A stretch of 64,000 bases of DNA, taken from assembly GCA_964611355.1 (NCBI GenBank), contig CAZSYD010000004.1, positions 9,034-73,033 of the forward strand, written 5' to 3'. Positions 1,201-36,595 of this stretch are shown one piece after another; the first letter of the stretch is position 1; each line of letters opens with the position of its first letter. Both the position numbers and the translations under genes were made by a program. Origin of the DNA: an uncultured Ignavibacteriales bacterium. Its GTDB lineage: Bacteria > Zixibacteria > MSB-5A5 > GN15 > JAAZOE01. The notes beneath the pieces were generated by a model. That model was not told the DNA's origin. It made no database searches and saw only the letters and a list, made by a program, of their open reading frames with translations.

Positions 1201-1340
1201 CTTATTCTCCTCGTTCAACCGGGTTTCCCGAAACCTGCACTTTCAGGCCGACCCTTCATGAATTCATAAATATTAAATTTAATTGGGAAGATATATCAAT
1301 TCAGGTTGAAAAGCAAATCTGATATGGTCGCCTGTTCGGC

Positions 1341-2357
1341 TCAGGAAACCTGCTTTTTCCGTTGGCGGCTTTTTCGAAGCGTAAGTTTGCGAGAACCCTC
1401 AGCCGACTGGCTGCCGCCGTATCGGTCGCACGCCCCCTTAGCCAGACTGAGAACCATATCAGCCAGTTCTTTCGGATATATCACCCTGGCATCGCCGCCA
1501 AAACCAAGGACCCAGCGGGCTATCTCTTCCAGGCCGCTGGCCCTCACGGTATATTCTACCGAGCCGTTTTTAAGCTTTTTGATATTCTCCGAGCAATGCC
1601 TTTTACCGGAAGAGATCATATAAGCAATTCCCGGGGAAAACCTGATCTTGATATCGTGCGGTATTCCGCCGGCCACGCCCCAACTATATTGGAAAAACTT
1701 TTCCGGATCGAATTCCTTGTCCCGTTCAAAGGTCTCTTCCTCGACGCAATATTCCCGTATCCTTTCAAGCCGAAAAAGCCGATACTCTTGTCTCATATTG
1801 CAATAAGCCAGCAGGTAGAAAGCCCGACCCCGGAAGACCAGATTGTATGGTCGGACTTTTCGAACCGATTTCTTTCCGACCCTGTTGGTATAGGTCATGG
1901 TGCATATCCGGCGATCCATTATGGAGTCTTCAATCAGATCATACAGCCCGGGATATATGCCGTCGCCAACCGTTGTGGATCTGTCCACCTTCAGCCAGGA
2001 TTCTCCTTCAACGGCATCCTCATCGGGCAGACGTCCGACCCGGCTGTTGATCTTGGCCAGCACCTTTTCCATTTCCTTTTTCAACGGCTCGAATGAAGCC
2101 ATCGGAGTTGATTTGACGGCCAGGTTTAGAAGCAACACTTCCCGGCCGGTCAGAGAAATCGGCGGCAGGACATCGCTCCGCAGAAATTTATACCCGTCGT
2201 CGTAGTAGATCGGAATATTGGCCGCCGAAAGGGTAATAATATCCCGGTAAATTGTTCTTCGGGAAACCCCGCACCTTTCGGCTATATCTCCGGCCTTTAG
2301 ATTCTTATTGGCCTGGATCAGATTGATGACATATAGAAGACGTTCATACTTTTGCAT
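1341..2357 (-). CDS. HTH + WYL-domain transcriptional regulator (YafY-like architecture)
   Basis: N-terminal wHTH: MQKYERLLYVINLIQANKNLKAGDIAERCGVSRRTIYRDI. Central WYL-like core: RKVRPYNLVFRGRAFYLLAYCNMRQEYRLFRLERI. I moved the start from the track's 2411 to the internal ATG at 2357, because the upstream extension is hydrophobic junk. Confidence 0.8.
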   Translation of the reverse strand: MQKYERLLYVINLIQANKNLKAGDIAERCGVSRRTIYRDIITLSAANIPIYYDDGYKFLRSDVLPPISLTGREVLLLNLAVKSTPMASFEPLKKEMEKVLAKINSRVGRLPDEDAVEGESWLKVDRSTTVGDGIYPGLYDLIEDSIMDRRICTMTYTNRVGKKSVRKVRPYNLVFRGRAFYLLAYCNMRQEYRLFRLERIREYCVEEETFERDKEFDPEKFFQYSWGVAGGIPHDIKIRFSPGIAYMISSGKRHCSENIKKLKNGSVEYTVRASGLEEIARWVLGFGGDARVIYPKELADMVLSLAKGACDRYGGSQSAEGSRKLTLRKSRQRKKQVS

Positions 2358-2465
2358 CAGAATATCCTCCCCGTCAATAATAGTTATAACGATACAAGCC
2401 GTCAAAGTCAAATTGGTTTTCTAAAATCGGTAGTATCGTGCTTCACCGATCAGGTATTGTCGTTT

Positions 2466-2487
2466 CCCCATAGTTTCGTCTATGGGG
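2466..2487. promoter_or_regulatory. Perfect palindrome CCCCATAG-N6-CTATGGGG in a divergent intergenic region; candidate operator
   Basis: Read directly: ccccatag tttcgt ctatgggg. It lies about 110 nt from the WYL gene start and about 120 nt from the start of the 2609 operon. It cannot be a terminator because both flanking genes diverge from it. Confidence 0.3.
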
Positions 2488-2608
2488 CAATTCCCATACC
2501 ATCGCCCCAACCTGCTGCAACTTCGCCCGTTGCGGAGCCGGCCTTTCATCGGCACACCCTTTGCGAATCTGCTTCCCGGAAATCGCCAACTATTTACCTG
2601 GGGGAAAT

Positions 2609-4624
2609 ATGACCACAAGAAGAAAACGCCCCAAGAAGAAAAGCCTCGGCAGAAGGCTCCTGTATCTGGCGAGTCACCTGTTGTGTGCAGGTTTCGCCAT
2701 AGTCCTGTTTTTGACCCTTGTGCAGTGCACTATCAAGAAACCCGAGGCGCCTTCATGGAAAACCAACCTGGTCATTCCCTTGGCCAATAAAACCTGGGAC
2801 ATGGAGGAACTGATTGAAAAGCTCAATCAGGAAAACCTTACTACCGACTCCAGCGGCAACCCGCTATTCTTTTACGAAAATGTGCTGGATACGGTAACGA
2901 TCGACGCCTCTTTTGCCGTGGACGACGTCGCCAAGACTTTTGCCGAATCTCTCGGTATCGTTGAACTCGATCCGATTGAAGAAACCGGCTTTGAGATCAA
3001 TCTCGGTGACGAATTCCCCGACCTCCCGCCGGGAAGTTTTCCGGATACGTCTTTTGATATTTCCCAGCCGCTGCCGCCCATGGGAGATTTTGCGGCCGTC
3101 ACTGTTTCAAGCGGCAACATGGTGGCGACAATCATCAACGATTTCGGCATTGATCTCGACACCGTCATAGTGACGATCAATGATGATTCTCTTGGCTGGC
3201 AGGTAACACATTATTCAATACCCGGAGGGATACCCGCCGGCGAAACGTCAGTTGATACCATCGATCTGGCCGGCAAAACCATCTCCAATAAGCTAAGCGC
3301 GCTTATTCACTGCCATACTCCCGGAGCGCCGACCGGTTTTACGACCGCCGACAAAACGCTGTCAGCCGGAGTCGGCATGCCGACCGGTCTGAACGTATCC
3401 TCCGCAACTGCGGTAATACCCGCAATTTCGAAATCATTCGGTGATACGGTTGAAATCGTCAGCGATCACGAGGTTACCAGAGCTGAACTTGAAGACGGGC
3501 AACTGGCGATCGATATCCGAAACAACACCGCGCTGCCCGATACGCTGAGTATCACTATTCCTGGCCTAAGGAACGGTCCCGATTCCCTGGTAATCGATAC
3601 TACCATTGACCCAAATAGCTCGGTTCAGATCAGCCGTAACCTTGACGGCTATTATCTTGAACCGAACGGCAACCAGGAGTTGGTCTTCACCGTCGACGCG
3701 GTCGTCAACTCCTCCGGTTCATTCGTTACCGTTAATTCAACCGACGACATGTCAATCGATGTCAATGTCTCAAATATTGCTCTGGCCAGCGTCGAAGGAA
3801 CGATCGCCAATACCTCGGCCAATTTCGACGACATCGAGGAAGAGATCGATATACCCACCGGGTTTGACGCCATGCAGCTTCCCTCGGCGATGCTTATTCT
3901 TGAAATCACCAACAGCGTTAACATCCCGGGAAGTTATTCAATAAATATCGTTCACAACAACGGCCGGGTCAAAGAAGTGGCCGGCAATGTCGATCCGGGC
4001 ACGCCCGATAATCCCGTCACTACCGTCAATGATATTGCTTTGGGCGACTTTATGGATCCGATACCGGAAACCATCACAGTCAACGGCAGCGCCACCTTCG
4101 GCGGCGCCGGATCGGTCACTCCAAACGACTATGTGATTGCGAAAATCACCATCAGTTCTCCGCTGGAGATGATTATCAACCCCAACGATTCAATTGAAGG
4201 TGAGTGGGAAGATATCAATATGGACATCGACAGTTCGGTCGTTGACGGTTTCGAAACAGCTCATTTCTACGCCACCTTTACCAATCGTCTTCCGGTCGGC
4301 GTAACCGCGGAAATTCTGCTTGGCGGCGACTCCGCTTCGCTGTATGGCAATCCCGATGTAACGCTGGGTCCGATATCGGTTGCCGCCGGTTACGTTAATC
4401 CGGCCACCGGTACGGTCGATTCCGCCCGCGCTTCCACCAACGAAATCATTATGGACGCTGATATGATAAAGGTGCTGTACAATGACACTCTCTGGGTGGG
4501 AGAATGGATCAAACTCGATTCAACCGGCGGAGCATCGGTAAAGATGACCTACAGCGATTCACTGACCATAACCGGTTACATCGAGGTTGAGTACAACTTC
4601 AGCGATGACCTCTTTGAGGATTGA
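2609..4624 (+). CDS. Large N-terminally anchored envelope protein, unknown function (possible lipoprotein, LVQC)
   Basis: 672-aa ORF with GGGGGA 4 nt upstream of the ATG at 2609. It has a basic N-terminus (TTRRKRPKKK), one hydrophobic helix and then LTLVQC|T. The remainder is acidic and Thr/Asp/Asn-rich, suggesting beta-rich extracytoplasmic domains. I recognise no catalytic motif. Confidence 0.65.
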   Translation: MTTRRKRPKKKSLGRRLLYLASHLLCAGFAIVLFLTLVQCTIKKPEAPSWKTNLVIPLANKTWDMEELIEKLNQENLTTDSSGNPLFFYENVLDTVTIDASFAVDDVAKTFAESLGIVELDPIEETGFEINLGDEFPDLPPGSFPDTSFDISQPLPPMGDFAAVTVSSGNMVATIINDFGIDLDTVIVTINDDSLGWQVTHYSIPGGIPAGETSVDTIDLAGKTISNKLSALIHCHTPGAPTGFTTADKTLSAGVGMPTGLNVSSATAVIPAISKSFGDTVEIVSDHEVTRAELEDGQLAIDIRNNTALPDTLSITIPGLRNGPDSLVIDTTIDPNSSVQISRNLDGYYLEPNGNQELVFTVDAVVNSSGSFVTVNSTDDMSIDVNVSNIALASVEGTIANTSANFDDIEEEIDIPTGFDAMQLPSAMLILEITNSVNIPGSYSINIVHNNGRVKEVAGNVDPGTPDNPVTTVNDIALGDFMDPIPETITVNGSATFGGAGSVTPNDYVIAKITISSPLEMIINPNDSIEGEWEDINMDIDSSVVDGFETAHFYATFTNRLPVGVTAEILLGGDSASLYGNPDVTLGPISVAAGYVNPATGTVDSARASTNEIIMDADMIKVLYNDTLWVGEWIKLDSTGGASVKMTYSDSLTITGYIEVEYNFSDDLFED

Positions 4625-4668
4625 TGACCATGAAGATCGAAGTTTTGAAAATAGATCCGGGGGAAATT

Positions 4669-5922
4669 ATGAAACGCAAGATATTTGTCGCCCTCGCTGT
4701 GGCCGGTATGCTGCTGATCGGGATTTCGACCGCTTCGGCATCCGGACTGGCCAACGCCCGGGCGATCGGCATGGCCGGAGCATACACTTCTCTGGCCAAG
4801 GGGTATGACTGCCCCAGCTTCAATCCTGCCAACCTTGGTTTTGAATCGCATCGCTTAAGCGGCTTTCAATTGTTCGGTTTGGGAGTATCGATTTCGAACA
4901 ACAGTTTTTCGCTGGACGATTACAACTCCTACACCGGCGCCGTTTTGAGCGAAGACGATAAGGAAAACCTCCTTTCCAAGATTCCCGCCGAGGGACTCAA
5001 GGTTACCGCCAATGCTGAAGCCAGCGCTCTTGCGGTCGGAATGGGGAGCTTTGCGATTTCAATATCCGGTATCGGGGCGGCAGAAATCAATCTTGGCCGC
5101 GCGCCGATGGAACTGCTTCTGCAGGGTAATACCCTGGCCGACACGGTTGACGTCAACGACATGTACGGCGAAGGTTACGGTCTGGCCTCGCTCAATTTTT
5201 CGTACGGACGCCTTGTCTATAAAAACGTCGACCGCCAGCTTTCCGTCGGCGGCACCTTCCGTTACCTCCGCGGTTTCGGTTACGAAGAAGTCATTGAATT
5301 GAACGGCAAGGCGGTCACGATGTCTACAGGGTTCGAGGGCGAGGGCAGTCTGGTGGCTCGCACCGCCACCGGCGGTTCCGGCATTGCCCTCGACCTTGGC
5401 GCGGCCCTGAAGATCAACAAAGACTATACGGTCGGCGTCAACTTTAACAATTTCCTCAGCGTCATCAAATGGAACAAAAACACAAAGGAACACCGTTTCA
5501 CCTTCGAATTCGACACGCTGAATGCAGGCAACATGGGCAGCGATTCAATCATTACTTCAACCGACACCACTATCGAGATCAGTTCTTTCTCGTCGCATCT
5601 GCCGTCAAGCATCAGAGCCGGTCTGGCTAAAACAACCGGATCATTCCTGTGGGCGGTTGACTGGGAGCAGGGATTCAAAAGAGCCGCCGGCAGCAGCGCC
5701 ACGCCCAGAATATCGACCGGCGGAGAATATCGCCCGTTAGGTTTCCTTCCCCTCAGGGCCGGTTTTGCCATCGGAGGCAAACAGGGAACCACGTACGCCG
5801 GCGGTTTCGGACTGGACATCTCGCCCTTTTATCTCGATCTGGCGGCGGCCAATTACAATGCCATCAGCGGTTCCGCAGGCAAGGGCCTTAATTTCGCCGT
5901 CAACAGCGGCTTTCGATTCTAA
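4669..5922 (+). CDS. Outer-membrane beta-barrel protein (FadL/PorV-like class)
   Basis: Signal peptide MKRKIFVALAVAGMLLIGISTASA. N-terminal motif ARAIGMAGAYTSLAKGYDCPSFNPANLG resembles FadL/PorV-type barrels. The sequence has alternating amphipathic strands and a C-terminal aromatic beta-signal ...FAVNSGFRF. Confidence 0.65.
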   Translation: MKRKIFVALAVAGMLLIGISTASASGLANARAIGMAGAYTSLAKGYDCPSFNPANLGFESHRLSGFQLFGLGVSISNNSFSLDDYNSYTGAVLSEDDKENLLSKIPAEGLKVTANAEASALAVGMGSFAISISGIGAAEINLGRAPMELLLQGNTLADTVDVNDMYGEGYGLASLNFSYGRLVYKNVDRQLSVGGTFRYLRGFGYEEVIELNGKAVTMSTGFEGEGSLVARTATGGSGIALDLGAALKINKDYTVGVNFNNFLSVIKWNKNTKEHRFTFEFDTLNAGNMGSDSIITSTDTTIEISSFSSHLPSSIRAGLAKTTGSFLWAVDWEQGFKRAAGSSATPRISTGGEYRPLGFLPLRAGFAIGGKQGTTYAGGFGLDISPFYLDLAAANYNAISGSAGKGLNFAVNSGFRF

Positions 5923-5932
5923 GGAGTAGATC

Positions 5933-7651
5933 ATGAAGGTTAAATTATTTGCTGCACCAATTGATCTCCGGCCGATGTTGACTTCGCTATGTCTGACCGC
6001 TCTGTTGCTCATGGCCGGATACAGCTCGGCAATGCCGCCTTATCCGGATGTGCAGACCAAAATTGACCAAGGCGCCATACCGCAACCGTTTCTCAAAGAA
6101 ACGTTTTACGAGATGCCGGCATATTTGAAGATTAATGCCCCATCTATAAAAAACGCCGTTTCTGTAACGGGCACATTTCGAGCCCTCTGCATTCTGGTTG
6201 ATTTCTCCGATAATACTTCTTCGGCCAACGCTCACGAATTCGACACGTTGATCTTCAACAACGGGACGGGAACGGTTCGGCACTATTATAGCGAAGTTTC
6301 CTATGGCCAGATTGACATCGTCGCCGTTGATCTGCCGTCATCGCTGGGCTGGCAGCGCGCGCCCCAAACATACACCTACTACGTCAATAGCAATTATGGA
6401 ACCGGGTCGTATCCGCAAAACACTCAGAAGCTCTGCGAAGACCTGGTTGACCTGGTTGATCCAGTGGTCAATTTCGCTGATTACGATAACGATGGCAACG
6501 GCTCTGTGGACGTCGTCATGATCGTGCATGCCGGGCCCGGCGCCGAAAAAACCGGGTCAACCTCAGATATCTGGTCGCACAAGTGGGGTATCAGCCCACG
6601 CTACAAAGATGGCGTGTACGTTTCCAACTACACCGTCATGCCGGAGTACTGGAATTCAGCCGGCGATATGACCATAGGCGTATATTGCCATGAACTTGGG
6701 CATGTTTTCGGACTGCCGGATCTGTACGACACGGAGCAACCACCCTCGGGAACCGCTTCCCAGGGAATCGGCCGCTGGTCGCTCATGGCCGGAGGCAGTT
6801 GGAACGGATACCTTGGCGACAGCCCGGCTCATCTTGACGCCTGGTGCAAAAAAGAGGTCGGCTGGATTAACCCGACCAACATTACCAGCAATCAAACCGG
6901 TGTCTACATTCCGAATTCCGAGTACAATGCCGTCGCCTACCGGCTCTGGACGTCAGGATCCGCCGGCGATGAATATTTCCTGGTGGAAAATCGTCAAAAG
7001 GTCGGCTACGACTCGACTCTCCCCGGACCAGGGGTGCTGATATGGCATATTGACGAAAGCATTACCACCGACAACGATCACGAATGGTATCCGGGACATA
7101 CCGAATACGGACATTATATGGTCGCCCTGGAACAGGCCGATAATCTCTACCAACTGGAAAAGAATACATCTCCGGGAAACGGCGGTGATCCTTATCCGGG
7201 GAGTGCCTCGAATACAAGTTTCACACCGACATCAAGTCCCAATTCCAACGGTTACAGCGCATCCAGCAGTTATGTTTCTATTACAAATATCTCGCCTTCA
7301 GCCTCGACCATGACGGCTGATTTCGCCGTAACCCTCTCCTCCGGCAACGAAGACCAGGAAACTGATGCTCTTCCCCAATTGACTCTGGAGCAGAATTATC
7401 CCAACCCGTTCAATCCGTCAACCAGCATAAGGTATTCCATCGAGACTGCCGGTAATATCGAAATAAATATCTACAACATCCTCGGTGAGTTTGTTTCGCA
7501 GATCGTGTACGGCTATCATTCACCGGGAACCTATACAACCCGCTGGAATGGGACGGATGGTGACGGTCAGCGCGCGCCAAGCGGCGTATATCTCTATGAA
7601 CTGGCCACGGACGAAAGTAACCTTGTGCGAAAAATGCTTATGCTGAAGTAA
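5933..7651 (+). CDS. Secreted M6-like (immune inhibitor A-type) zinc metalloprotease with T9SS C-terminal sorting domain
   Basis: HELGHVFGLPDLYD (HEXXH at 6689-6703). Signal/anchor at the N-terminus. The C-terminal ~85 aa read LEQNYPNPFNPSTSIRYSI...GVYLYEL...RKMLMLK, typical of a Por secretion tail / T9SS type A CTD. Confidence 0.8.
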   Translation: MKVKLFAAPIDLRPMLTSLCLTALLLMAGYSSAMPPYPDVQTKIDQGAIPQPFLKETFYEMPAYLKINAPSIKNAVSVTGTFRALCILVDFSDNTSSANAHEFDTLIFNNGTGTVRHYYSEVSYGQIDIVAVDLPSSLGWQRAPQTYTYYVNSNYGTGSYPQNTQKLCEDLVDLVDPVVNFADYDNDGNGSVDVVMIVHAGPGAEKTGSTSDIWSHKWGISPRYKDGVYVSNYTVMPEYWNSAGDMTIGVYCHELGHVFGLPDLYDTEQPPSGTASQGIGRWSLMAGGSWNGYLGDSPAHLDAWCKKEVGWINPTNITSNQTGVYIPNSEYNAVAYRLWTSGSAGDEYFLVENRQKVGYDSTLPGPGVLIWHIDESITTDNDHEWYPGHTEYGHYMVALEQADNLYQLEKNTSPGNGGDPYPGSASNTSFTPTSSPNSNGYSASSSYVSITNISPSASTMTADFAVTLSSGNEDQETDALPQLTLEQNYPNPFNPSTSIRYSIETAGNIEINIYNILGEFVSQIVYGYHSPGTYTTRWNGTDGDGQRAPSGVYLYELATDESNLVRKMLMLK

Positions 7652-7734
7652 GCCGGATACCACGCACTATTCAGGCATATCGGCTTGCATGTTTCTGCCT
7701 CCCCCACGGAAACAAGACGGTATGCCTTATTGGA

Positions 7735-7762
7735 AGCCCCTGCCAATCGGCGGGGGCTTTTT
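7735..7762 (+). terminator. Rho-independent terminator after the M6 protease gene
   Basis: 10-bp stem agcccctgcc / ggcgggggct (one G-U pair), loop aatc, followed by TTTT. Confidence 0.65.
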
Positions 7763-7767
7763 GATTA

Positions 7768-7986
7768 TTACTGATCGTGTTGTTGAGCGCCGATGTCCAC
7801 TTCTTCGGGAACTCCACGACCCTGTAATTTTTTCTCTCTTTTCCTTTTCATGTAGCACGACTTGCATAATTTCGGATCGTCAGTATAACCCTTTTCGGCG
7901 AAATACTGCTGTGCCTGTATGGTGAACACAAATTCCTCTCCGCAGTCGGCACATATCAGGATCTTAGTTTCGAAACCAGAATCCAT
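7768..7986 (-). CDS. Small zinc-ribbon protein (CxxC...CxxC)
   Basis: 72 aa. CADCGEEFVFTIQAQQYFAEKGYTDDPKLCKSCY followed by a basic tail KRKREKK. This matches the widespread 'probable zinc-ribbon' small-protein pattern. Confidence 0.6.
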   Translation of the reverse strand: MDSGFETKILICADCGEEFVFTIQAQQYFAEKGYTDDPKLCKSCYMKRKREKKLQGRGVPEEVDIGAQQHDQ

Positions 7987-8181
7987 GATACCCCTCTTAG
8001 GCCGATTAATTACATCCCTGTAATACCCAAGACTTTCTGTTTCGGCAGTATCGGGTAGTAACTTCTATCCTTAAATAGCAATGCTCGCCATTGTTAAAAA
8101 ATTTGTCAACAAAAACTATGGGGCTATTACGAAGAAATACAGGCCAAAAATCAATCGAATTAACCTTGATTTGGCAAACCG

Positions 8182-9867
8182 TTATCTGTCGGCGCAGGGC
8201 TCGGGACCGTTATGGAAAATATGACAAAGAAGATAGACGGCGTCGGCTATATTAATTGAGCCGTCGCAATTGGTGTCGCCGCTCTGCCATCTCGGCTGCG
8301 GGATTTGACCTTTATTGAAAATATAGTTTAATATATAATTTACATCGCCGATATTGACCGATCTGTCGTAATTTGCATCTCCGTAAGGAAGAACAATACT
8401 GCTCAGGTAATAATCATTTTCCGATGTGTACGGCGATATTACCGCAGGGATCACCGCTACCGAATTGTAATCTTCGATGTATGGCAAGTAAAGGCTGATA
8501 TGACTACCGCCTGAAGCGGTGTCGGTCAGAATCGTATCCGACTCGCCATCGGCAATTATACCGGTCGCCACCCATTGGACAGGAACGGCCCCATCAAGTC
8601 TTATTTCAAGTATCCCTTTAGCATTACCAACGTTCAGGTTTATATAATTCCCGGCTAATCCATCCGGGCGATTTACCGGCATGATTGAATCATGGGGCAA
8701 AGTTGAAAATGACAGATCGATATCAACCGGGGGATAATCGGCGGCGTCCGGAAAATACAAGCCCGGCACAGTTCTTTCGCCGGTATAGTAATTCCAGAGG
8801 GTAAATTCGGGAAATATCTGCCTAACGTCGGTTCCATAGGAAACCAGCGCCGAATCAATAGCAGCCAGAGCATCATTATAGCGACAGGCTTCCCATATCG
8901 GACGAAAGATAAAGATATCGTACTTGTTCTGCAGGAAAGCCGGCCAGATAAATGTACCGTACATATGGTAACCGGTATCGGTGGTCAGAGCCAGTTCCGG
9001 TTTCGTGTAGAAAAGCCACAAATAGTTATAATTATCGTTGACCTCCGGAAAGACGACCTCCTCCATCCAGACGGCGCCGGCCTCCATCCACCATAAATCC
9101 TCATGGACGTCGTACGCCAGTTGAACGGCGTGATAAATCTCGTGGGCGCACGTCACTTTCTGCGCCCCGATGGTATCCCCTTCCGGATCATCATTGGGCG
9201 GAAAACCATAGAAATTATGGTGAATCCCGATATAGCTGCTGTAATCATTCCAGGCGCTGTCGCCTGCAGCGTCAGGGAATGTAACGCCGTACCCGCTGAT
9301 TGCCAGAAGATAAATATCGTACTTATCGTCGCCCCCTTGACCGTTATCCGACGGCGGGGGATAATATCCGAAATTGGCGACGTAGGTTGTATAAGCGCTA
9401 TCGCCGTATAAAGCTATCCGTTCCACGTAGTCGGGAATGGAGTTCAGATTGTCATCCTGAGGCGGCACCGCTTCCGGCCCCGAGGTATTGTAATGAATCC
9501 TGAAAAGACCGGCCGGTGAATCATACGAATACTGAGCCGAAGGACGGGCAAGGTATCCCGAAATCAAAAATTGCTGCTCCGGCGTGAAAATATGCCGGTT
9601 TTCAAAGATCTCCAGTGCAAGGCCAGTGCCCGATTTAATTATTGACGATTGATCAACCTGACCGGCAGTCAAAGAAAGCGGTGTAAAAAAGAGCCTTGCC
9701 TGGCAGGTGAGTTTCTCGGCCAGGTCAATTTGCCCCAAGAGATAAGCCTTTTCAGCGTCAAGATAATTATCCGGCTCATCCATTCCGAAGGCGCAGGCGG
9801 TTACCAGCCAGAATAAGAGCGCCAAACAAATTAATATCCGAGATTTTGAAGAATTTCCAACAGCCAT
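8182..9867 (-). CDS. Secreted putative HEXXH metalloprotease with C-terminal dockerin-like module
   Basis: Signal peptide (ILICLALLFWLVTACAFG). TCAHEIYHAVQLAYDVHEDLWWMEAGAVWMEE (HEIYH at 9130-9144). The C-terminus has duplicated Ca-binding dockerin-type repeats: DANYDRSVNIGDVNYILNYIF ... GDTNCDGSINIADAVYLLCHIF. Confidence 0.6.
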   Translation of the reverse strand: MAVGNSSKSRILICLALLFWLVTACAFGMDEPDNYLDAEKAYLLGQIDLAEKLTCQARLFFTPLSLTAGQVDQSSIIKSGTGLALEIFENRHIFTPEQQFLISGYLARPSAQYSYDSPAGLFRIHYNTSGPEAVPPQDDNLNSIPDYVERIALYGDSAYTTYVANFGYYPPPSDNGQGGDDKYDIYLLAISGYGVTFPDAAGDSAWNDYSSYIGIHHNFYGFPPNDDPEGDTIGAQKVTCAHEIYHAVQLAYDVHEDLWWMEAGAVWMEEVVFPEVNDNYNYLWLFYTKPELALTTDTGYHMYGTFIWPAFLQNKYDIFIFRPIWEACRYNDALAAIDSALVSYGTDVRQIFPEFTLWNYYTGERTVPGLYFPDAADYPPVDIDLSFSTLPHDSIMPVNRPDGLAGNYINLNVGNAKGILEIRLDGAVPVQWVATGIIADGESDTILTDTASGGSHISLYLPYIEDYNSVAVIPAVISPYTSENDYYLSSIVLPYGDANYDRSVNIGDVNYILNYIFNKGQIPQPRWQSGDTNCDGSINIADAVYLLCHIFHNGPEPCADR

Positions 9868-10019
9868 CGTCGTCCTTCAAAGCCGTATGGTGGTAATTGA
9901 TATAAAAGGCGGACGAATTCCTATAGACAGGATACCACCGTTTGCCGTTTAGTCAAGTTTGTTATTCATATATCCCGATATAGCCGTACTTTTGCAATCC
10001 GGGCAGCTTCTACACTGTA

Positions 10020-11648
10020 TTAGAAAAATTGGCCGGTTCCTACTGAAATTTGCCAGTTTTCAAGTCTTGGAGCATACGCAAAGTCAATCCGAATAATTTC
10101 CGCCTGCGTACTCCGGGTGATTCCGAAACGAATACCGAATCCGAAAGAGGTCCGCATATCGCCGATCGAAAAATTGCCTTCTCTCGTCCACACATTACCT
10201 ATATCGACAAAAGCTACCCCCCCTAAACCGACCGACATAACCTCAATATTGGAAAAATAGCGGTGCTCCAGATTAATGATCAGCCGATCTTCACCGCTTG
10301 AATAATAGGCTGGATACCCTCGTAGGCCGTTGTCTTCGTCCAAATAGAGAGTCAGCCCCGACTCACATAACCTGTCGGACAGGTATGATATTCCCATTAC
10401 AAGTGTATGATTGCTATGGTATTGGCTATAACCTTTAAAGTAGTAATTTATCATCCTCCGAAGGACACGGTCGCCCGCCCGCCATTGTTGGCCAAAGATG
10501 CCAAAGATCAAAAGCGACGACTTGTATGATGTCGTCAATTGCGGCGCCAAGGCGTAATACTGGTAATCTTCCCGGCGCCTCGGAAAACCCGCCCCCGCTG
10601 AAACGGTCACATCCAGGCCATGGTTCACATCTTCCGGCTTGCAAAACCTGTTTAGGCGCGTATATTCGGCGAAGTGAATCTGTTGCAGCCTGAAACCGGC
10701 TTGTACATAATGAATGATTGAATCCCGGCCTTCCTTCGGCAATATCGACCGAGTCATTTCCGGCGCATACATTTCAGTATTATAAAAGCTGCGGCCCCGC
10801 CAATTGATATCATTATAGCTATATAATACCATAAAGTAATACTTCATATGACCGGGCCCAATCCTATAATTATTAGTCAATTGTAACCCCTTGTTATTCA
10901 GCCTGTCTCGGCCCGCAAGGATCTCATTGATATAGTAGTCAATCCTTTTGTTGACCCTTGAATAACAAACATTGCCCGCCCACTTCTGGCCAAGAGAGTA
11001 ATATGGTTTCCCTGCCGACAGCGCCAGGCGTCCCGCCCTGGGGTTGTCGGAATAGACCAGCCCCAGTGATGTTTTTTGGCCTGCAAAACGATCATCCTGA
11101 ATCTCCATTTGATAGTAATTACGATCATCCTCAAGGATGAAATAATCATGACTCATGAAGATTCCGCGACCGAGAAGATTATTTTCTTCCATCCCGATTT
11201 GCAGATCATCACGCTTTCCGCCGCGATGAAACGAGACGCCGGTTATAGTCGACCATCTATCGGAAGTATTGACAACCATTATGTTTTTGCCGGATTCGTC
11301 CTTTTTCAAGAGAATATCCGTCTTGAAAAGATACGGTAACCTGTGCAGGTTTCGGATTGACTCGTTTATCAGGGCTGTATCATAAATATCCCCCCGGCTT
11401 AGTAATAATTCACGTCTTATAATCGACGCCCGGGTTACGATATGCATGTTGTTGGCCAGTCGAAAAATGAAGTTATCATATCGCGGGTCGGAAAAGTCAA
11501 ACACGTTTTCAGTGATTATCTCCACCGAATCGATAATCGGCGCCGGCCTTGTTTCAAAGGTATGAGCCGTTTCGGCTCCGGCGGCACAGCACATTATCGC
11601 CGGAAATAAACCGATGGCAAGAAGTATTTGATTTCCCAACAACTTCAT
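10020..11648 (-). CDS. Omp85-superfamily outer-membrane protein (BamA/TamA-like, POTRA + surface-antigen barrel)
   Basis: Signal peptide. POTRA-like segment IIDSVEIITENVF...TRASIIRRELLLSRGDIYD...IRNLHRLPYL. Long beta-barrel region. C-terminal beta-signal ...ISVGTGQFF. Confidence 0.7.
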   Translation of the reverse strand: MKLLGNQILLAIGLFPAIMCCAAGAETAHTFETRPAPIIDSVEIITENVFDFSDPRYDNFIFRLANNMHIVTRASIIRRELLLSRGDIYDTALINESIRNLHRLPYLFKTDILLKKDESGKNIMVVNTSDRWSTITGVSFHRGGKRDDLQIGMEENNLLGRGIFMSHDYFILEDDRNYYQMEIQDDRFAGQKTSLGLVYSDNPRAGRLALSAGKPYYSLGQKWAGNVCYSRVNKRIDYYINEILAGRDRLNNKGLQLTNNYRIGPGHMKYYFMVLYSYNDINWRGRSFYNTEMYAPEMTRSILPKEGRDSIIHYVQAGFRLQQIHFAEYTRLNRFCKPEDVNHGLDVTVSAGAGFPRRREDYQYYALAPQLTTSYKSSLLIFGIFGQQWRAGDRVLRRMINYYFKGYSQYHSNHTLVMGISYLSDRLCESGLTLYLDEDNGLRGYPAYYSSGEDRLIINLEHRYFSNIEVMSVGLGGVAFVDIGNVWTREGNFSIGDMRTSFGFGIRFGITRSTQAEIIRIDFAYAPRLENWQISVGTGQFF

Positions 11649-12020
11649 AATCAGAGGTCACTCACTTAACTCACCGCTCCATATGGCCGGCATCCATCAC
11701 GTCAAGTATATCGGCCCATTAACGATACTATCAAAGAAACCTTAACATTTATAATTAATCATACCCGCCGAAGCTCCTAAAATAATCTTGGCGATCTGGT
11801 CATCAGGGCTAATATCGCCCGTTTTGCCGCCATGCTGGAACCGATTCTCACGGTAGCCGTCAGATGGTATTATTCTGATCCTGACTACGGATATCTTTCT
11901 GCCAATGTGGAACTTAATCCAGGTATTCCGCTAATCACCCTAAAACGGCATTAAAAAAAACCGATAAAAACTACATACGTAGTGTGATTTCATAAAAACC
12001 TTGGAAAAAGGAGGCCAGCC

Positions 12021-12443
12021 TTGAGAAATCGTAGTAACTCCGGATTCACGTTGATTGAGCTGGTAATTATTATCGTGATACTCGGAATTCTGGCGGCCAT
12101 TGCGATTCCGAAATACAAGGATATTTCATCGGACGCCAGGGAGGCCTCCTGCCGCGGCGCTCTGGGCGGCCTGCGCTCAGGCATAACGATATACTATGCC
12201 AATCAGGCGGTCAAAACAGGAACTGCCATCTGGCCTGCACGCGATAGCGTAGCCACTCTCGGAATCGTTACGGAAATCGAAATTCCGAAAAACCCCTATT
12301 GCTCGGACAGTAATGCTCCTGACAGTATTGTCACAGGCGTTACCAAAGGAGCGACTGTCGGCAATCGTGGAGGCTGGGCCTACAATGCCTCAACCGGAGA
12401 AATCTGGCCCAACACAAGTACGGCAGGTGAGAATAACTGGTAA
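12021..12443 (+). CDS. Type IV pilin / T2SS pseudopilin-like protein (prepilin N-terminal methylation motif)
   Basis: AAAGGAGG precedes a TTG start. Leader MRNRSNSG | FTLIELVIIIVILGILAAIAIPKY is the canonical class III signal. Confidence 0.85.
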   Translation: MRNRSNSGFTLIELVIIIVILGILAAIAIPKYKDISSDAREASCRGALGGLRSGITIYYANQAVKTGTAIWPARDSVATLGIVTEIEIPKNPYCSDSNAPDSIVTGVTKGATVGNRGGWAYNASTGEIWPNTSTAGENNW

Positions 12444-12447
12444 AATC

Positions 12448-12537
12448 ATGAGCGGTCGTTGGTCTGCCGGTTAAGGTTTCACCTGGGTCGAGTTCGCCAA
12501 TAATTATTATTCCCCGCCTGACTACTATGGAGGGTAA
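12448..12537 (+). pseudogene. Possible remnant of a second prepilin gene (in-frame TAA inside the leader, truncated)
   Basis: Reads MSGRWSAG-TAA-GFTWVEFANNYYSPPDYYGG-stop. GFTWVEF resembles a degenerate GFTLIEL cleavage/methylation motif. Very short, so weak evidence. Confidence 0.3.
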
Positions 12538-12849
12538 AAACAGCCGCCATTGAGGTTCAGACAGTAATTTCGATTCAGACCATCAATCGCTCTTCGGTCG
12601 GTTATTCCGCCCCGGCCGACAACCGGAAACCGATTACTCCAGAGAGACCGATCAACACCTGCGTTAGCGCAAAAAACAACGAAACCGTTGTCCCGGGAGG
12701 ACTACTCAAGGAAACGACCATCGAGAATAAACAGAAAATGCCGCTCCTCGGTCATAACCCGGTTATATGGGAATTATTCACCCATATGGTAACCGAGAAA
12801 AAAAACCATCGATCTGTTAATATTGATTACGCCCCGGATTTTGGACTAA
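12522..12849 (+). pseudogene. Secretin (PilQ/GspD family) C-terminal remnant, frameshifted at an A8 run
   Basis: Not in the ORF track. Translation reads ...TCVSAKNNETVVPGGLLKETTIENKQKMPLLGHNPVIWELFTHMVTE, then an A8 homopolymer (12798-12805). After a +1 shift it reads KKTIDLLILITPRILD-stop. This matches the secretin C-terminal consensus (dGqTvviGGL...kvPlLGdiPlLGxLF...K.ELLIfiTPrIv). Only about 100 aa are present, with no N-terminal or N0-N3 domains. Confidence 0.6.
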
Positions 12850-13309
12850 AAGCTTTTCCAAAAAACAGGTTGTCCAGCATCCAGCGGTAGCTCTGGGAGA
12901 TTAGAAGCACAAGACCCGGCACCAGATAGACCAAGTCACGAAGGATAAGTTTATATCCGGCTGATTTGGCTTTTGAGCTTACCGTAAAACAACCGCACTC
13001 AAGGTCTATCCCGCGTATCACGTTGATACCGGTGGCCACCATGAAAACCAGAATCAGAAAAATCAGGTAATTGCGGCTGCCATTGTAGAAGAAACCGGTA
13101 ATAAGAAATATACCCGCCAAAAACTCTGAAATCGGCAATATCAAAGAAAAAATATTTATCAGCGATCCCGGCAACAGGTGATAATTATAAACAATGCGGG
13201 CAAACTGTTCCGGGTTGGCCATCTTGTCCAGCGAGGCGTAAATAAAAATTACTCCAAAAATGACGCGGCAGATAAATGTCAGGTAATCATTGGATAAGAT
13301 TTTATTCAT
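12827..13309 (-). CDS. MauE/DoxX-family membrane protein
   Basis: Four TM helices, the FIYASLDKMANPEQF start typical of DoxX/MauE, and a CGCF motif (DLECGCFTV). Confidence 0.7.
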   Translation of the reverse strand: MNKILSNDYLTFICRVIFGVIFIYASLDKMANPEQFARIVYNYHLLPGSLINIFSLILPISEFLAGIFLITGFFYNGSRNYLIFLILVFMVATGINVIRGIDLECGCFTVSSKAKSAGYKLILRDLVYLVPGLVLLISQSYRWMLDNLFFGKAFSPKSGA

Positions 13310-13311
13310 CT

Positions 13312-13830
13312 TTACGGCTCTTCCCGTTCGACGCTTTCACCTGTCACGGGGAGATTGTTGTCTCCCCATTCCTGCCAGCCGCCAAAAAAAATGAAGACAT
13401 GTTGAAAACCGAGGTCGTAAAGATACCGACCAAGAAACAACGACGACTCGCATTCATCGCCGCTGCAGTAGATCACGTATCCCCGGTCGCGGTTGAGGAT
13501 ATCAATCACCGCTTCCCAGGTTTCGTCAAGGTAATCAAACGGGATATTGATCGCCTTGACGATATGACCATACTTATAGTCTTCGGGGTCACGGGAATCG
13601 ATAAATATCATATCCGGTGATTGGTATTTGGCTACGGCGTCGTCCAATGTGACAAAAGGAGGATCACCTTCCTGCGCCGACGGCGGTTTTATCGGCTCTT
13701 CGCCGCTGGCGGTTCGTGACGGCCAGTTGCCTTTAATGGCAATACCTCCCGGGCGGGAGGCATTCAATACCAGCGCGGCCACCGCAGAAAAAATTAGAAT
13801 CACAATAACCTGCAGAAACCAGTTTTTCAT
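13312..13830 (-). CDS. Membrane-anchored rhodanese-domain protein
   Basis: N-terminal TM helix. Rhodanese core FIDSRDPEDYKYGHIVKAINIP...VIYCSGDECESS (active-site Cys loop)...FGGWQEW. A 2-nt gap to the MauE/DoxX gene, which is a common pairing. Confidence 0.8.
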   Translation of the reverse strand: MKNWFLQVIVILIFSAVAALVLNASRPGGIAIKGNWPSRTASGEEPIKPPSAQEGDPPFVTLDDAVAKYQSPDMIFIDSRDPEDYKYGHIVKAINIPFDYLDETWEAVIDILNRDRGYVIYCSGDECESSLFLGRYLYDLGFQHVFIFFGGWQEWGDNNLPVTGESVEREEP

Positions 13831-14241
13831 ATTAAAACGTTTTTACCCGTGCCAGCTTTATAGGTTTCCGTATTTATTGGTGGTAATTGGAAAAGTTAAC
13901 CGTTGCCTTCCTTTGCTCTCATCGTCTCAAATATCGGTCAGTCATGGCAGTTACTCCAGCCGATATGCCGTAAAAATCGGAATATCGGCAACCAAATTAT
14001 CGGTCTTGATACAAAAAAATCGCGGCATCGTCAATAGAAATCTGCATAACTTGATATTTTAACAATCGTATATAAAACCGTTTTTACAGTATCAAGATTG
14101 TCGGAAATAAATCTGACGAATTGGAGTATTAACGAACGCCGTTAATGACGTAACCGGGACGAAATAGAAATATACATCATGTCGGGCTCCGGCCAAAACC
14201 GGATCCCGCCATTTGTGTTTTACCCCTCGATCGTTGTGCCG

Positions 14242-24353: not shown

Positions 24354-24770
24354 CTATTTGGATGATGATTCCGACCCGGAAATAGCGGCGTCGAGAATGC
24401 CATTGACAAAAGAGCTCGATTCGGCAGTGCTATATTTTTTGGCCAGGTCTATCGCTTCGTTGATAGCCACCTTCTCCGGTATGTCCGGCATAAAATTGAT
24501 TTCCGCCAGCGCCATGCGCAAAATGATGCGGTCAATCAAAGCAATCCGTTCCAGTTCCCAGTTTTCCGCCAACCGGGCAATCTCCTCATCCAGAAAGGCC
24601 AGGTTCTTGATGATTGTCTCCAGCAGATGACGGGCGAAATGGAGATACTTTTCCTCTAATGAGTTTCCCCGGGCCAGCTCGTCAAAGAGCTCACCTATGT
24701 CTCGTTCATGGATTCGGTAGGCATAGAGCCCCTTGAGTACAAGTTCACGCGCCTTTCTGCGGGCTGTCAT
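24354..24770 (-). CDS. nusB: Transcription antitermination factor NusB
   Basis: [18 protein letters not shown]...FVNGILD pattern. The ATG at 24770 forms an ATGA overlap with the ribH stop. The track's longer N-terminus overlaps ribH. Confidence 0.9.
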
Positions 24771-25243
24771 AGATTGCCAATCCGGCGATACAAATCGATC
24801 ATTTCGATGGCCGAAAGAGCGGCGTTCCACCCCTTGTTGCCAGCCTTTGTGCCGGCCCGTTCTATAGCTTGATCCAGCGAATCGGCCGTGATCAGGCCGT
24901 AAACCACCGGCAATCTCGTATCCAGCGATATTTTGGCGATTCCCTTGGTTGTCTCGGCGGCAATATAATTAAAATGCGGCGTATCGCCCCTGATGAGGGC
25001 GCCCAGACAGATTATTGCGTCATATTTTTTCGTCAGCGCCAGTTCCTGGGCAACGTACGGTATCTCGAATGATCCCGGCACCCAGCTAACGATAATATCA
25101 GCTTCGGCGACCCCGTGGCGCGTCAAACAATCTATGGCGCCATCCAGCAGTTTCGAGGTTAACAACTCGTTAAAACGGCTGACGACGATGGCATGTTTTT
25201 GCCCCTGTCCGTTCAGATTTCCGCTATTGACGGCAATCGGCAT
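24767..25243 (-). CDS. ribH: 6,7-dimethyl-8-ribityllumazine synthase
   Basis: [19 protein letters not shown]...VPGSFEIP...[16 protein letters not shown]...[18 protein letters not shown]. Confidence 0.93.
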
Positions 25244-25256
25244 TCTATTACCTCCT

Positions 25257-26462: not shown

Positions 26463-26476
26463 ATAAAACCTCTTTC

Positions 26477-27115: not shown

Positions 27116-27117
27116 AA

Positions 27118-28203: not shown

Positions 28204-28392
28204 AAAAAAATCCCCGTATATCCCGGGGATAGCGAATCTGCGTGCGGGCTAAATACCGCTTGGCCTATTCATCTTCTCCCATCCGGACTATTACCGTCGG
28301 CGCCGGAATTTCACCGGTTCAGCAGAGTTTGTTCTCCGCTCGCGGGCTGTGACCGCCGGTTGAGGAATTTCGCCTCACCCCAAAGATATATC
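28204..28392 (-). promoter_or_regulatory. FMN riboswitch (RFN element), with aptamer ~28268-28392 and terminator/SD-sequestering hairpin 28204-28230
   Basis: Minus strand reads ATCTTTGGGGTGAGGCGAAATTCCTCAACCGGCGGTCACAGCCCGCGAGCGGAGAAC...GAACCGGTGAAATTCCGGCGCCGACGGTAATAGTCCGGATGGGAGAAGAT, which covers the conserved RFN core. It is followed by ATCCCCG-ggatata-CGGGGAT + T7, abutting the ribD ATG. Confidence 0.92.
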
Positions 28393-35809: not shown

Positions 35810-36595
35810 TTACATTCCAAGGAAGTTTTCGATATAAAACCGAAGGAGCCGATCGCCGTAGATAACAACCACGACCGCCGCTATCGCCAGAAACGGCCCG
35901 AACGGAATCAGCCGTTTGCTGCGAACCTTTTTCGAGAACAGCATCCAGATGATCGAAACGACAGCACCAATTAAGGCGCCGCCGAGGAAGATTAAAAGTA
36001 CTTTCTGCCAGCCGACAAAGGCGCCAATCATGGCCGCCATTTTAATATCACCACCCCCCATCGCTTCCTTCTTAAAAAGCCATTCTCCCAGATAAGCCAC
36101 CGCCAGAAGCGATCCGCCACCGACTACAAAGCCGATCAGGGCGTTTACTAATCCAGGCGGATTGACAAATATGGAACTGACCAGACCGACGACTATCCCG
36201 GGCAGGGTAATCTTGTCGGGAATTATCTGGAACTCAAAATCAATAAAGAATATGGCTATAAGTGATGAGGCCAGAAAACAATGAGCCGGAAATTGAAGCG
36301 TTAAACCGTCGAGATGCAGAAAAAAGAGATAAAGAGCGCAGTTGAGCATCTCGACCGCCGGGTAGCGAGGCGAGATGGGCGCGTTGCATATTCGGCATTT
36401 ACCAAGAAGAATAAGATATGATATCAGTGGGATGTTATCGTAAAATGGTATTCTCGTTCGGCAGTTGGGGCACTCCGATCGTTCGAATATCATTTTTTTA
36501 TTCCGCGGGAGACGGTAAATCAAAACATTCAAAAATGACCCGACGGCCAGACCGAAAAGGACAACCAGTCCATAGATATAAAAATCGGGCTGCAT
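35810..36595 (-). CDS. pilD: Prepilin peptidase / N-methyltransferase (A24 family)
   Basis: N-terminal CPNC...CRIC zinc motif, multiple TM helices, and aspartate motif regions including GGGDIKMAAMIGAFVGW. Confidence 0.88.
   Translation of the reverse strand: MQPDFYIYGLVVLFGLAVGSFLNVLIYRLPRNKKMIFERSECPNCRTRIPFYDNIPLISYLILLGKCRICNAPISPRYPAVEMLNCALYLFFLHLDGLTLQFPAHCFLASSLIAIFFIDFEFQIIPDKITLPGIVVGLVSSIFVNPPGLVNALIGFVVGGGSLLAVAYLGEWLFKKEAMGGGDIKMAAMIGAFVGWQKVLLIFLGGALIGAVVSIIWMLFSKKVRSKRLIPFGPFLAIAAVVVVIYGDRLLRFYIENFLGM

What the first reader, a model, noticed from the sequence alone, without database searches (positions are those of the whole stretch)
12021..12849. Decayed pilus/secretion locus: intact pilin followed by a stop-interrupted prepilin stub and a frameshifted secretin C-terminal remnant
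**What the sequence shows.** An apparently intact prepilin gene (SNSG|FTLIELV...) ends at 12443. The 380-nt 'non-coding' stretch after it holds two remnants:
- MSGRWSAG-TAA-GFTWVEF..., a degenerate prepilin leader with an in-frame stop.
- About 100 codons matching the extreme C-terminus of PilQ/GspD secretins (ETVVPGGLLKE...KMPLLGHNPVIWELF...). After a +1 shift at an A8 homopolymer (12798-12805) this reads KKTIDLLILITPRILD-stop.

**What is missing.** The 400-600 aa of secretin N-terminal and N0-N3 domains are absent, as are the assembly ATPase and platform genes. The remnant's end overlaps the convergent MauE/DoxX gene by 23 nt.

**Interpretation.** This looks like a large internal deletion that fused the start of a minor pilin to the end of the secretin. 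The prepilin peptidase pilD survives 23 kb away, at the end of the heat-shock operon. This raises the question of whether the pilin is still exported.
Basis: partly seen in the sequence, partly recalled or inferred. Interest (0 to 1): 0.55.

Follow-up and report, generated by a model that had tools for sequence, protein, structure and literature searches.

The report
Decayed pilus operon, surviving orphan pilin
In this Zixibacteria genome, four deletions removed about 6.85 kb of an eight-gene type IV pilus operon, leaving short dead gene fragments around one pilin gene that is still intact and still under selection; this is ordinary gene decay, with an orphan pilin as a modest curiosity.

Summary

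- **What relatives carry.** About 35 related Zixibacteria loci carry OMP(-) | PilB/MshE-like ATPase, PilC/GspF, pilin, minor pilin, PilM/N-like, two small genes, 419-431-aa secretin | MauE(-), rhodanese(-). One of them, L168, is a sister about 91% identical in DNA.
- **What the window keeps.** It keeps 10 codons of the ATPase with a mutated start, and about 50 codons of PilC. The 140-aa pilin is intact. About 21 codons of the minor pilin remain, with a GAA->TAA stop and a frameshift. About 112 codons of the secretin C-domain remain, with two frameshifts and a 43-codon gap.
- **The deletions.** There are four (2481, 279, 3958 and 129 nt). Two have exact 5-6-nt direct repeats at their ends.
- **Not an artefact.** A separate 963-bp metagenome contig is 100% identical across three junctions.
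- **Selection.** Window-specific amino-acid changes are 27 against 1 in the remnants, but 3 against 2 in the pilin and 2 against 5 in pilD.

The pilin and its peptidase are therefore still under selection after their machine was lost. Which machine, if any, now assembles the pilin cannot be told from 64 kb.

The parts
11649..11762 (.). Retained divergent intergenic region between the Omp85-like gene (10020-11648, -) and the former pilus ATPase gene
   Evidence: Aligns to L168 4856-4966 with 14 mismatches in 111 nt and 3 gap columns.
11763..11789 (+). 5' remnant of the PilB/MshE-like ATPase gene (about 10 codons). The start codon is mutated ATG->ATA (11761-11763) and there is a 2-nt indel.
   Evidence: Alignment to the L168 T2SSE start ATGGCCGCCGAAGCTCCTAAAAAAATTGGCGAA. 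No other ATPase remnant was found with the clade HMM.
11790..11934 (+). PilC/GspF (T2SSF) remnant, made of codons ~262-277 and ~370-404 of 404. Deletion junction 1 lies at the GGCGA repeat (11790-11794). Deletion junction 2 (279 nt, in frame) lies at the ATGCTG repeat (11832-11837). There is a +1 frameshift near 11862, and the original TAA stop is at 11932-11934.
   Evidence: tblastn E=3e-6 and 9e-4. Clade HMM positions 260-280 and 383-403, E=2e-5 and 2e-8. DNA alignment to L168 7483-7530 and 7810-7914.
11935..12020 (+). 86-nt spacer upstream of the pilin, presumed to be the pilin's own promoter and 5'UTR. It contains a 38-nt block (11953-11990) identical in L168, a CCGATA motif (11961-11966) invariant in 9 relatives, and the RBS GGAGG (12010-12014).
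   Evidence: Promoter function is inferred, not shown; the sigma-70 scan found no convincing site here.
12021..12443 (+). Intact type IVa-like major prepilin, 140 aa, with the class III signal peptide ...SNSG|FTLIE.
   Evidence: PF07963 E=2e-8. Similar to solved T4a pilins and MshA, E=3e-10. 66-79% identical across Zixibacteria. dN/dS is 0.13-0.25 against sister lineages. Relative-rate count 3:2.
12448..12511 (+). Minor-pilin stub (about 21 codons) with a nonsense mutation GAA->TAA at 12472-12474 and a frameshift near 12497. Deletion junction 3 is at 12511/12512.
   Evidence: Alignments to L005 and L168, where the gene is intact at 150-170 aa.
12512..12849 (+). Remnant of the secretin C-domain, made of codons ~266-292 and ~336-419 of 419. 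There is an extra A at 12536-12540 (frameshift), deletion 4 (129 nt, 43 codons) at 12596/12597, a +1 frameshift in the A8 run at 12798-12805, and the original TAA stop at 12847-12849.
   Evidence: PF00263 E=2.2e-16. Clade HMM E=6e-25. tblastn E=3e-25. DNA alignment to L168 12431-12513 and 12645-12895. Relative-rate count 18:1.
12827..13309 (-). Intact convergent MauE/DoxX gene. Its 23-nt overlap with the secretin 3' end is ancestral.
   Evidence: PF07291 E=3.5e-25. L168 has the same 160-aa gene with the same overlap. dN/dS 0.17.
35810..36595 (-). Intact prepilin peptidase/N-methyltransferase PilD. The CxxC...CxxC motifs and the catalytic Asp motifs (FFIDxE...; GGGDIK) are conserved.
   Evidence: PF06750 E=8e-32 and PF01478 E=5e-23. 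94% identical to the sister P0126, with a relative-rate count of 2:5.

Best explanation
Window 11649-12849 is the wreck of a compact type IV pilus (T4P/MSHA-like) operon that is conserved throughout the candidate phylum Zixibacteria.

**Shown.**
- The ancestral operon, intact in the ~91%-identical sister L168 and in about 35 other loci, was: ATPase (578 aa, with an N-terminal MshE-type c-di-GMP-binding motif), PilC/GspF (404 aa), major pilin (140 aa), minor pilin (~156 aa), PilM/N-like (528 aa), two small proteins (190 and 152 aa) and a short secretin (419 aa). It sits between an Omp85-like gene and a MauE-rhodanese pair.
- In the window's lineage four deletions removed about 6.85 kb. They are 2481 nt (ATPase codon ~11 to PilC codon ~262), 279 nt inside PilC, 3958 nt (minor-pilin codon ~22 to secretin codon ~266) and 129 nt inside the secretin.
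- The fragments then collected a lost start codon, a nonsense codon, four or five frameshifts and an excess of amino-acid changes.

**Inferred.**
- The deletions arose by slippage or illegitimate recombination between short direct repeats. GGCGA and ATGCTG are present at both ends of two of them.
- The pilin gene survives because selection still acts on it. It has its own conserved upstream spacer and RBS and an intact class III signal peptide. Its substitution pattern is that of a constrained gene, as is that of the prepilin peptidase PilD 23 kb away.
- The most likely mechanism is that the pilin is still made, is processed by PilD, and is used by a pilus or secretion machine encoded outside this window. 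Less likely, it acts as a membrane-anchored protein.
- The remnants themselves have no function.
For: **Synteny.**
- The intact operon is in L001, L003 and L004, L006, L007-L017 and L022 and L087-L100.
- It is also in the close relatives L005, L168-L170 and L171-L173.
- Only the window and the identical contig L167 lack it.

**Mapping.**
- blastn of L168 against the window gives collinear blocks 1-5001, 7483-7530, 7810-8472, 12431-12513 and 12645-14123.
- The junction sequences show the GGCGA and ATGCTG repeats.

**Identity of the remnants.** Pfam Secretin E=2.2e-16. Clade HMMs for T2SSF and the secretin match.

**Not an assembly artefact.** The JGI contig L167 is 100% identical over window 11571-12533, which spans three junctions.

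**Decay against constraint.**
- Window-derived against L168-derived amino-acid changes are 9:0 in the PilC remnant and 18:1 in the secretin remnant.
- The same counts are 3:2 in the pilin, 5:3 in MauE, 4:8 in the rhodanese and 15:10 in the OMP.
- Fisher's exact test, remnants against pilin, gives p=9e-6.
- Pilin dN/dS is 0.13 against L005 and 0.25 against L168.
- At the remnants' density of disruptive events (5, 7 or 9 events counted over 578 nt), the chance that a neutral 423-nt pilin gene would escape unhit is 0.026, 0.006 or 0.001.

**pilD.** It is intact, its catalytic motifs are conserved, and the relative-rate count is 2:5.
Against: - Only 64 kb is visible, and no other pilus or secretion machine gene is in it. 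The claim that another machine uses the pilin is therefore untested.
- The pilin carries several lineage-private replacements. One is M84T, at a position that is Met in all compared relatives. Its dN/dS against L168 (0.25) is slightly above that of the flanking genes (0.10-0.17). Partial relaxation cannot be excluded with so few sites.
- L167 may come from the same or a related sample as the window's assembly. It excludes an assembler artefact, but it does not prove the deletion is fixed in a natural population.
- Junctions 3 and 4 do not show a clean direct repeat.
- The A8 frameshift alone could be a homopolymer sequencing error, though this would change nothing.
Confidence: 0.85

Rival explanations
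1. The pilin is also dead and has simply not yet been hit. Its machine is gone, the gene evolves neutrally, and its intact reading frame is luck or reflects the recency of the loss.
For: No assembly machine is visible in the window. The pilin has 4-6 private replacements, including one at an otherwise invariant Met. Its dN/dS against L168 is the highest of the local intact genes, at 0.25.
Against: The relative-rate count for the pilin is 3:2, against 27:1 for the adjacent remnants (Fisher p=9e-6). At the remnants' density of disruptive mutations, the chance of escaping unhit is 0.001-0.026. The upstream spacer, RBS and signal-peptide motif are conserved. pilD is also still constrained.
Confidence: 0.13
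2. This is an assembly or binning artefact. The contig was mis-joined or collapsed, and the real genome has the full operon.
For: The sequence is from an uncultivated organism. One frameshift sits in an A8 homopolymer. A 24-mer across junction 3 was not found in the JGI metagenome-contig collection.
Against: A separately assembled 963-bp JGI contig (L167) is 100% identical across junctions 1, 2 and 3. The fragments carry 10-19% substitutions relative to L168, heavily skewed to the window branch, plus a nonsense codon and a lost start codon. No assembler error would produce these. About 55 kb of other genes in the window show no frameshifts.
Confidence: 0.02
3. The short fragments have been co-opted as new small genes or regulatory RNA, for example a mini-secretin or a 3'UTR or terminator for the pilin.
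For: A 122-codon stop-free stretch persists in the secretin remnant. A 50-aa ORF lies at 12738-12890. A terminator-like hairpin lies on the minus strand at 12695-12680.
Against: The stop-free stretch has no start codon until codon ~73 and no RBS. No relative other than the identical L167 has the short form. Replacements are strongly accelerated, 27:1. There is no Rfam match and no plus-strand terminator.
Confidence: 0.02

Closest known systems
Type IVa / MSHA-type pilus operons (PilB/MshE, PilC, PilA/MshA, PilMNOP, PilQ/MshL)
   Same: The ancestral operon, seen intact in L001 and L168, has a PilB-like ATPase with an MshE-type c-di-GMP-binding N-terminus, PilC/GspF, a T4a-like major pilin, a minor pilin, a PilM/N-like protein and a secretin.
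   Different: None of the proteins reaches an NCBIfam equivalog cut-off. The secretin is short (419-431 aa). There is only one minor pilin and no PilT in the cluster. The pilin is the most conserved component. In the window only the pilin survives.
Type IV pilus gene decay in Francisella tularensis: direct-repeat-mediated loss of pilA in LVS, and pilT, pilE and pilV pseudogenes in type B strains (PMC2941502)
   Same: Individual T4P genes are inactivated in specific lineages by deletion between direct repeats and by point mutation, while other pilus genes stay intact.
   Different: In Francisella the pilin is lost and the machine is kept. Here the machine (ATPase, platform, alignment complex, secretin) is lost and the pilin and peptidase are kept. 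The organism is an uncultivated environmental bacterium, not a pathogen.
Orphan prepilin genes distant from any machine cluster, for example the paralogous pilin at L019 in a Zixibacteria MAG that also has the intact operon at L016
   Same: A prepilin gene stands alone with no assembly genes within 7 kb on either side.
   Different: L019 is a 52%-identical paralogue in a genome that still has the machine. The window's pilin is the operon's own major pilin, orphaned by deletion.

Membership tests
Secretin (PF00263; PilQ/GspD/MshL) | Complete C-terminal secretin domain in one open reading frame | tested here: not met
   Only profile positions 78-168 of 169 match. There are two frameshifts, a 43-codon internal deletion and no start codon.
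Secretin (PF00263; PilQ/GspD/MshL) | N-terminal periplasmic domains (STN/N0, Secretin_N) and a signal peptide | tested here: not met
   These are present in the L001 secretin (PF07660, PF03958). They are absent from the window, and the clade HMM finds nothing before position ~275.
Secretin (PF00263; PilQ/GspD/MshL) | Descent from a secretin gene (homology) | tested here: met
   PF00263 E=2.2e-16. 80-84% DNA identity to the 3' part of the intact L168 secretin gene, at the syntenic position.
Type IV pilin / prepilin (PF07963, class III signal peptide) | Short basic leader ending in Gly, then F+1, E+5 and a hydrophobic alpha1-N helix | tested here: met
   MRNRSNSG|FTLIELVIIIVILGILAAIAIP. PF07963 E=2e-8 and TIGR02532 above its cut-off.
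Type IV pilin / prepilin (PF07963, class III signal peptide) | Globular domain related to known T4a major pilins | tested here: met
   phmmer against PDB sequences finds Neisseria PilE (query residues 9-115, E=3e-10), MshA and PAK PilA. No structure was predicted.
Type IV pilin / prepilin (PF07963, class III signal peptide) | A prepilin peptidase is available | tested here: met
   pilD at 35810-36595(-) is intact and constrained.
Type IV pilin / prepilin (PF07963, class III signal peptide) | Assembly into a filament by an ATPase/platform machine | not testable with these tools
   The cognate machine is deleted. The rest of the genome is not available.
T2SSF / PilC platform protein (PF00482) | Two T2SSF domains in a ~400-aa polytopic membrane protein | tested here: not met
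   Only codons ~262-277 and ~370-404 remain, with a frameshift.
Functional type IV pilus / T2SS gene cluster | ATPase, platform, alignment complex and secretin all present | tested here: not met
   The ATPase is reduced to 10 codons with ATG->ATA. No trace of the PilM/N-like, 190-aa or 152-aa genes was found.

The most novel reading that the evidence does not exclude
The operon's own major pilin has become a true orphan that selection keeps after its dedicated ATPase, platform, alignment complex and secretin were lost. This would imply that in Zixibacteria this unusually conserved pilin has a role separable from its cognate machine. It is 66-79% identical across the phylum, more conserved than the ATPase. 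It might be assembled in trans by another pilus or secretion system, or it might act as a PilD-processed membrane protein.
Probability: 0.5. Interest if true: 0.45.

Novelty: new member of a known kind. Interest (0 to 1): 0.3.

Why it matters
- **For annotation.** Window 11763-11934 and 12448-12849 should be called pseudogene fragments, not intergenic DNA or small ORFs. This lineage should not be scored as having the Zixibacteria pilus.
- **For biology.** It is a clean natural experiment. A sister genome about 91% identical keeps the whole operon, which allows base-level reconstruction of four deletions. It also shows that a major pilin and its peptidase stayed under purifying selection while the machine decayed. 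If another machine uses this pilin, that would show pilin sharing between systems in an uncultivated phylum. If none exists, it would point to a filament-independent role.
- **Limits.** Either way the scope is modest. Loss of pilus genes by deletion and point mutation is well known, for example in Francisella (PMC2941502).

Tried and rejected
- **Exact-sequence look-ups.** Look-ups of the window's pilin and MauE found nothing, although an identical pilin (P0124, P0122) is in the protein collection. The route through cluster members of P0001 gave the decisive loci L167 and L168.
- **Junction 24-mer.** A 24-mer across junction 3 was not found in metagenome contigs.
- **Pilin-based collection scans.** Scans of genome contigs and metagenome contigs returned only relatives at 76% identity or less. 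They were useful for synteny counts but not for dating.
- **Clade HMMs.** HMMs for the ATPase, the PilM/N-like gene and the 190-aa and 152-aa genes found no remnants. I first took 11649-11789 to be of unknown origin. L168 showed it to be the retained intergenic region plus the ATPase 5' end.
- **Promoter and terminator scan.** The sigma-70 scan gave no convincing promoter in the pilin spacer and no plus-strand terminator after the pilin.
- **Rfam and tRNA scans.** Nothing was found in the locus.
- **Literature.** A search for Zixibacteria pili found nothing relevant.
- **dN/dS against distant relatives.** Synonymous sites are saturated against L001, L003 and L006.
- **Not done.** I did not predict a structure for the pilin, because it would not bear on the question.
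- **Rejected readings.** I rejected an assembly artefact, co-opted small genes and programmed frameshifting at the A8 run. The gene is broken in several other places.

Full report
**1. The observation**

The pilin gene at 12021-12443(+) is an uninterrupted 140-codon ORF. It has a TTG start, with GGAGG seven bases upstream. It has a classical class III signal peptide (MRNRSNSG|FTLIELV...) and matches PF07963.

Directly after its stop lies ATG(12448)-AGC-GGT-CGT-TGG-TCT-GCC-GGT-TAA(12472-12474)-GGT-TTC-ACC-TGG-GTC-GAG. This is a prepilin leader with an in-frame stop.

From about 12512 to 12849, three reading frames together spell the end of a secretin.
- The frame-corrected translation matches Pfam Secretin at E=2.2e-16, profile positions 78-168 of 169.
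- It matches an HMM built from 13 Zixibacteria secretins at E=6e-25.

The A8 run at 12798-12805, the 23-nt overlap with the convergent MauE/DoxX gene (12827-13309, -) and pilD at 35810-36595(-) are all as described.

**2. What relatives have at this position**

The pilin has thousands of homologues. The best are 70-94% identical 140-143-aa proteins of candidate division Zixibacteria.

Wherever the contig is long enough, the same arrangement is found:
- an Omp85-like gene on the minus strand;
- then, on the plus strand, a PilB/MshE-like ATPase (~578 aa), PilC/GspF (404 aa), the pilin, a minor pilin (150-170 aa), a PilM/N-like protein (443-531 aa), two small proteins (~190 and ~150 aa) and a short secretin (419-431 aa);
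- then MauE and a rhodanese on the minus strand.

This holds for the following loci.
- L001, L003, L004 and L006.
- Twelve species-representative genomes.
- Fourteen metagenome contigs.
- The closest relatives L005, L168-L170 and L171-L173.

In the intact operon the ATPase carries an N-terminal MshE-type c-di-GMP-binding motif. The proteins score best against PilB, GspF/PilC and PilQ models, but below every equivalog cut-off. The pilin is most similar to solved type IVa pilins and MshA. The ancestor was therefore a compact, divergent T4aP/MSHA-like pilus system.

**3. Base-level reconstruction**

L168 is an 87.9-kb JGI contig. Its flanks are ~91% identical in DNA upstream and 86-87% downstream, with the same genes at the same lengths: 572, 561 and 542 aa upstream, and 160, 172, 104 and 737 aa downstream.

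Against it the window aligns in collinear blocks:

| L168 | Window |
|---|---|
| 1-5001 | 6792-11797 |
| 7483-7530 | 11790-11837 |
| 7810-8472 | 11829-12492 |
| 12431-12513 | 12512-12595 |
| 12645-14123 | 12598-14081 |

This gives four deletions.
- **D1, 2481 nt.** It runs from ATPase codon ~11 to PilC codon ~262. GGCGA is present at both ends (window 11790-11794).
- **D2, 279 nt, in frame, inside PilC.** ATGCTG is present at both ends (window 11832-11837).
- **D3, 3958 nt.** It runs from minor-pilin codon ~22 to secretin codon ~266. The junction is at 12511/12512 and shows no clean repeat.
- **D4, 129 nt (43 codons), inside the secretin.** The junction is at 12596/12597.

About 6.85 kb is gone in total.

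The fragments also carry these further lesions:
- the ATPase start mutated ATG->ATA, plus a 2-nt indel;
- a +1 frameshift in PilC near 11862;
- GAA->TAA and a frameshift in the minor-pilin stub;
- an extra A at 12536-12540;
- the extra A in the A8 run.

D1 and D2, with the ATPase and PilC fragments at 11763-11934, were missed.

**4. Not an artefact**

L167 is a 963-bp contig from a different assembly (JGI 3300031355). It is 100% identical to window 11571-12533 and so spans D1, D2 and D3. The fragments differ from L168 at 10-19% of bases, against about 9% in the flanking genes and 5% in the pilin. The other roughly 55 kb of genes in the window are uninterrupted. I cannot exclude that L167 and the window come from related samples.

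**5. Decay against constraint**

I polarised the amino-acid differences between the window and L168 using L001, L003 and L006 as outgroups.

| Segment | Window-derived | L168-derived |
|---|---|---|
| PilC remnant | 9 | 0 |
| Secretin remnant | 18 | 1 |
| Pilin | 3 | 2 |
| MauE | 5 | 3 |
| Rhodanese | 4 | 8 |
| Omp85-like gene | 15 | 10 |

- Remnants against pilin: 27 of 157 codons against 3 of 140, Fisher p=9e-6.
- Pilin against flanking genes: p=1.
- Pilin dN/dS is 0.13 against L005 and 0.25 against L168. Flanking genes give 0.10-0.17.
- At the density of disruptive events seen in the 578 nt of fragments, a neutral 423-nt gene would escape unhit with probability 0.001-0.026.
- The 86-nt spacer upstream of the pilin is 78/81 identical to L005. 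It holds a 38-nt block identical in L168 and a CCGATA motif invariant in nine relatives.
- pilD keeps its Cys and Asp motifs. It shows 2 window-derived against 5 sister-derived changes.

The pilin and its peptidase have therefore stayed under purifying selection over the period in which the neighbouring fragments decayed.

Two caveats apply. The numbers are small. The pilin also has a few private replacements, one of them (M84T) at a position that is Met in all compared relatives.

**6. How it most likely works**

- **Shown.** The machine genes are destroyed. The pilin, its upstream spacer and RBS, and pilD are intact and constrained.
- **Inferred.** The deletions arose by slippage or illegitimate recombination at short repeats. 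The pilin is transcribed from its own promoter in the spacer and is cleaved and methylated by PilD. It is used by a machine encoded elsewhere or, less likely, functions without polymerisation.

No other prepilin or pilus or secretion machine gene lies in the 64 kb, so this last step is untested. One Zixibacteria MAG that has the intact operon also has a lone paralogous pilin elsewhere (L019). Pilin genes away from the machine therefore do occur in the phylum.

**7. Comparison with what is known, and novelty**

Lineage-specific decay of T4P genes by deletion between direct repeats and by point mutation is well documented, for example in Francisella tularensis (PMC2941502). There the pilin is lost and the machine is kept, which is the reverse of what is seen here.

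The fragments descend from secretin, PilC and PilB genes but fail every functional criterion of those families. The pilin meets the sequence criteria of a type IV prepilin.

This is a new example of a known kind of event, in a little-studied phylum. I found no literature on Zixibacteria pili.

**8. Verdict**

Interest is modest, at 0.3. The only point beyond routine pseudogene annotation is the selectively retained orphan pilin, and its significance depends on the rest of the genome.

Noticed in passing
L001, L003, L004, L006-L017, L022, L087-L100 compared with window 12021-12443: Across Zixibacteria the major pilin is the most conserved protein of the operon. It is 66-79% identical, against 50-68% for the ATPase, 35-62% for PilC and 36-61% for the secretin. 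This is the reverse of the usual pattern for type IV pili, where major pilins vary most.
   Followed up: partly
window 11953-11990 (CCGATA at 11961-11966): A 38-nt block upstream of the pilin is identical in the sister L168, and a CCGATA motif is invariant in nine diverged relatives. It is probably a promoter or regulatory element of unknown type, since no sigma-70 consensus site scores here.
   Followed up: partly
L001 2962-4701 (ATPase of the intact operon): The ATPase has an N-terminal MshE-related c-di-GMP-binding motif (NF053729, E=1e-19) and an MshEN domain. This suggests the pilus of relatives is regulated by c-di-GMP.
   Followed up: no
window 12021-12443 compared with flanking genes: Synonymous divergence of the pilin from L168 (dS 0.12) is well below that of the neighbouring genes (0.25-0.47). 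This would fit strong codon bias in a highly expressed gene, or a more recent exchange of the pilin allele.
   Followed up: no
window 12827-13830 (-) and the syntenic position in relatives: A MauE/DoxX-rhodanese gene pair sits convergent to the secretin in most Zixibacteria loci. Its 3' end overlaps the secretin 3' end by 23 nt in L168 as well.
   Followed up: partly
window 28267-28391 (-): An FMN riboswitch (RF00050, 100 bits) lies upstream of the ribD-ribE-ribBA-ribH operon at 24767-28203.
   Followed up: no
window 5933-7651 (+), 50525-53383 (-), 8182-9867 (-): Two large secreted proteins carry type IX secretion C-terminal sorting domains (Por_Secre_tail). One is an M6 peptidase and the other has BACON/FlgD_ig domains. 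A third protein ends in a dockerin. Protein export in this organism is therefore not limited to pilus-type systems.
   Followed up: no
L019 7001-7456 (MAG MFD05942.bin.2.290, which also holds L016): A 52%-identical paralogous pilin stands alone, with no ATPase, platform or secretin gene within 7 kb, in a genome that has the intact operon on another contig.
   Followed up: partly
window 12680-12695 (-): A terminator-like hairpin followed by a T-run lies on the minus strand inside the secretin remnant, about 130 nt downstream of the MauE stop. It is probably a chance match.
   Followed up: no
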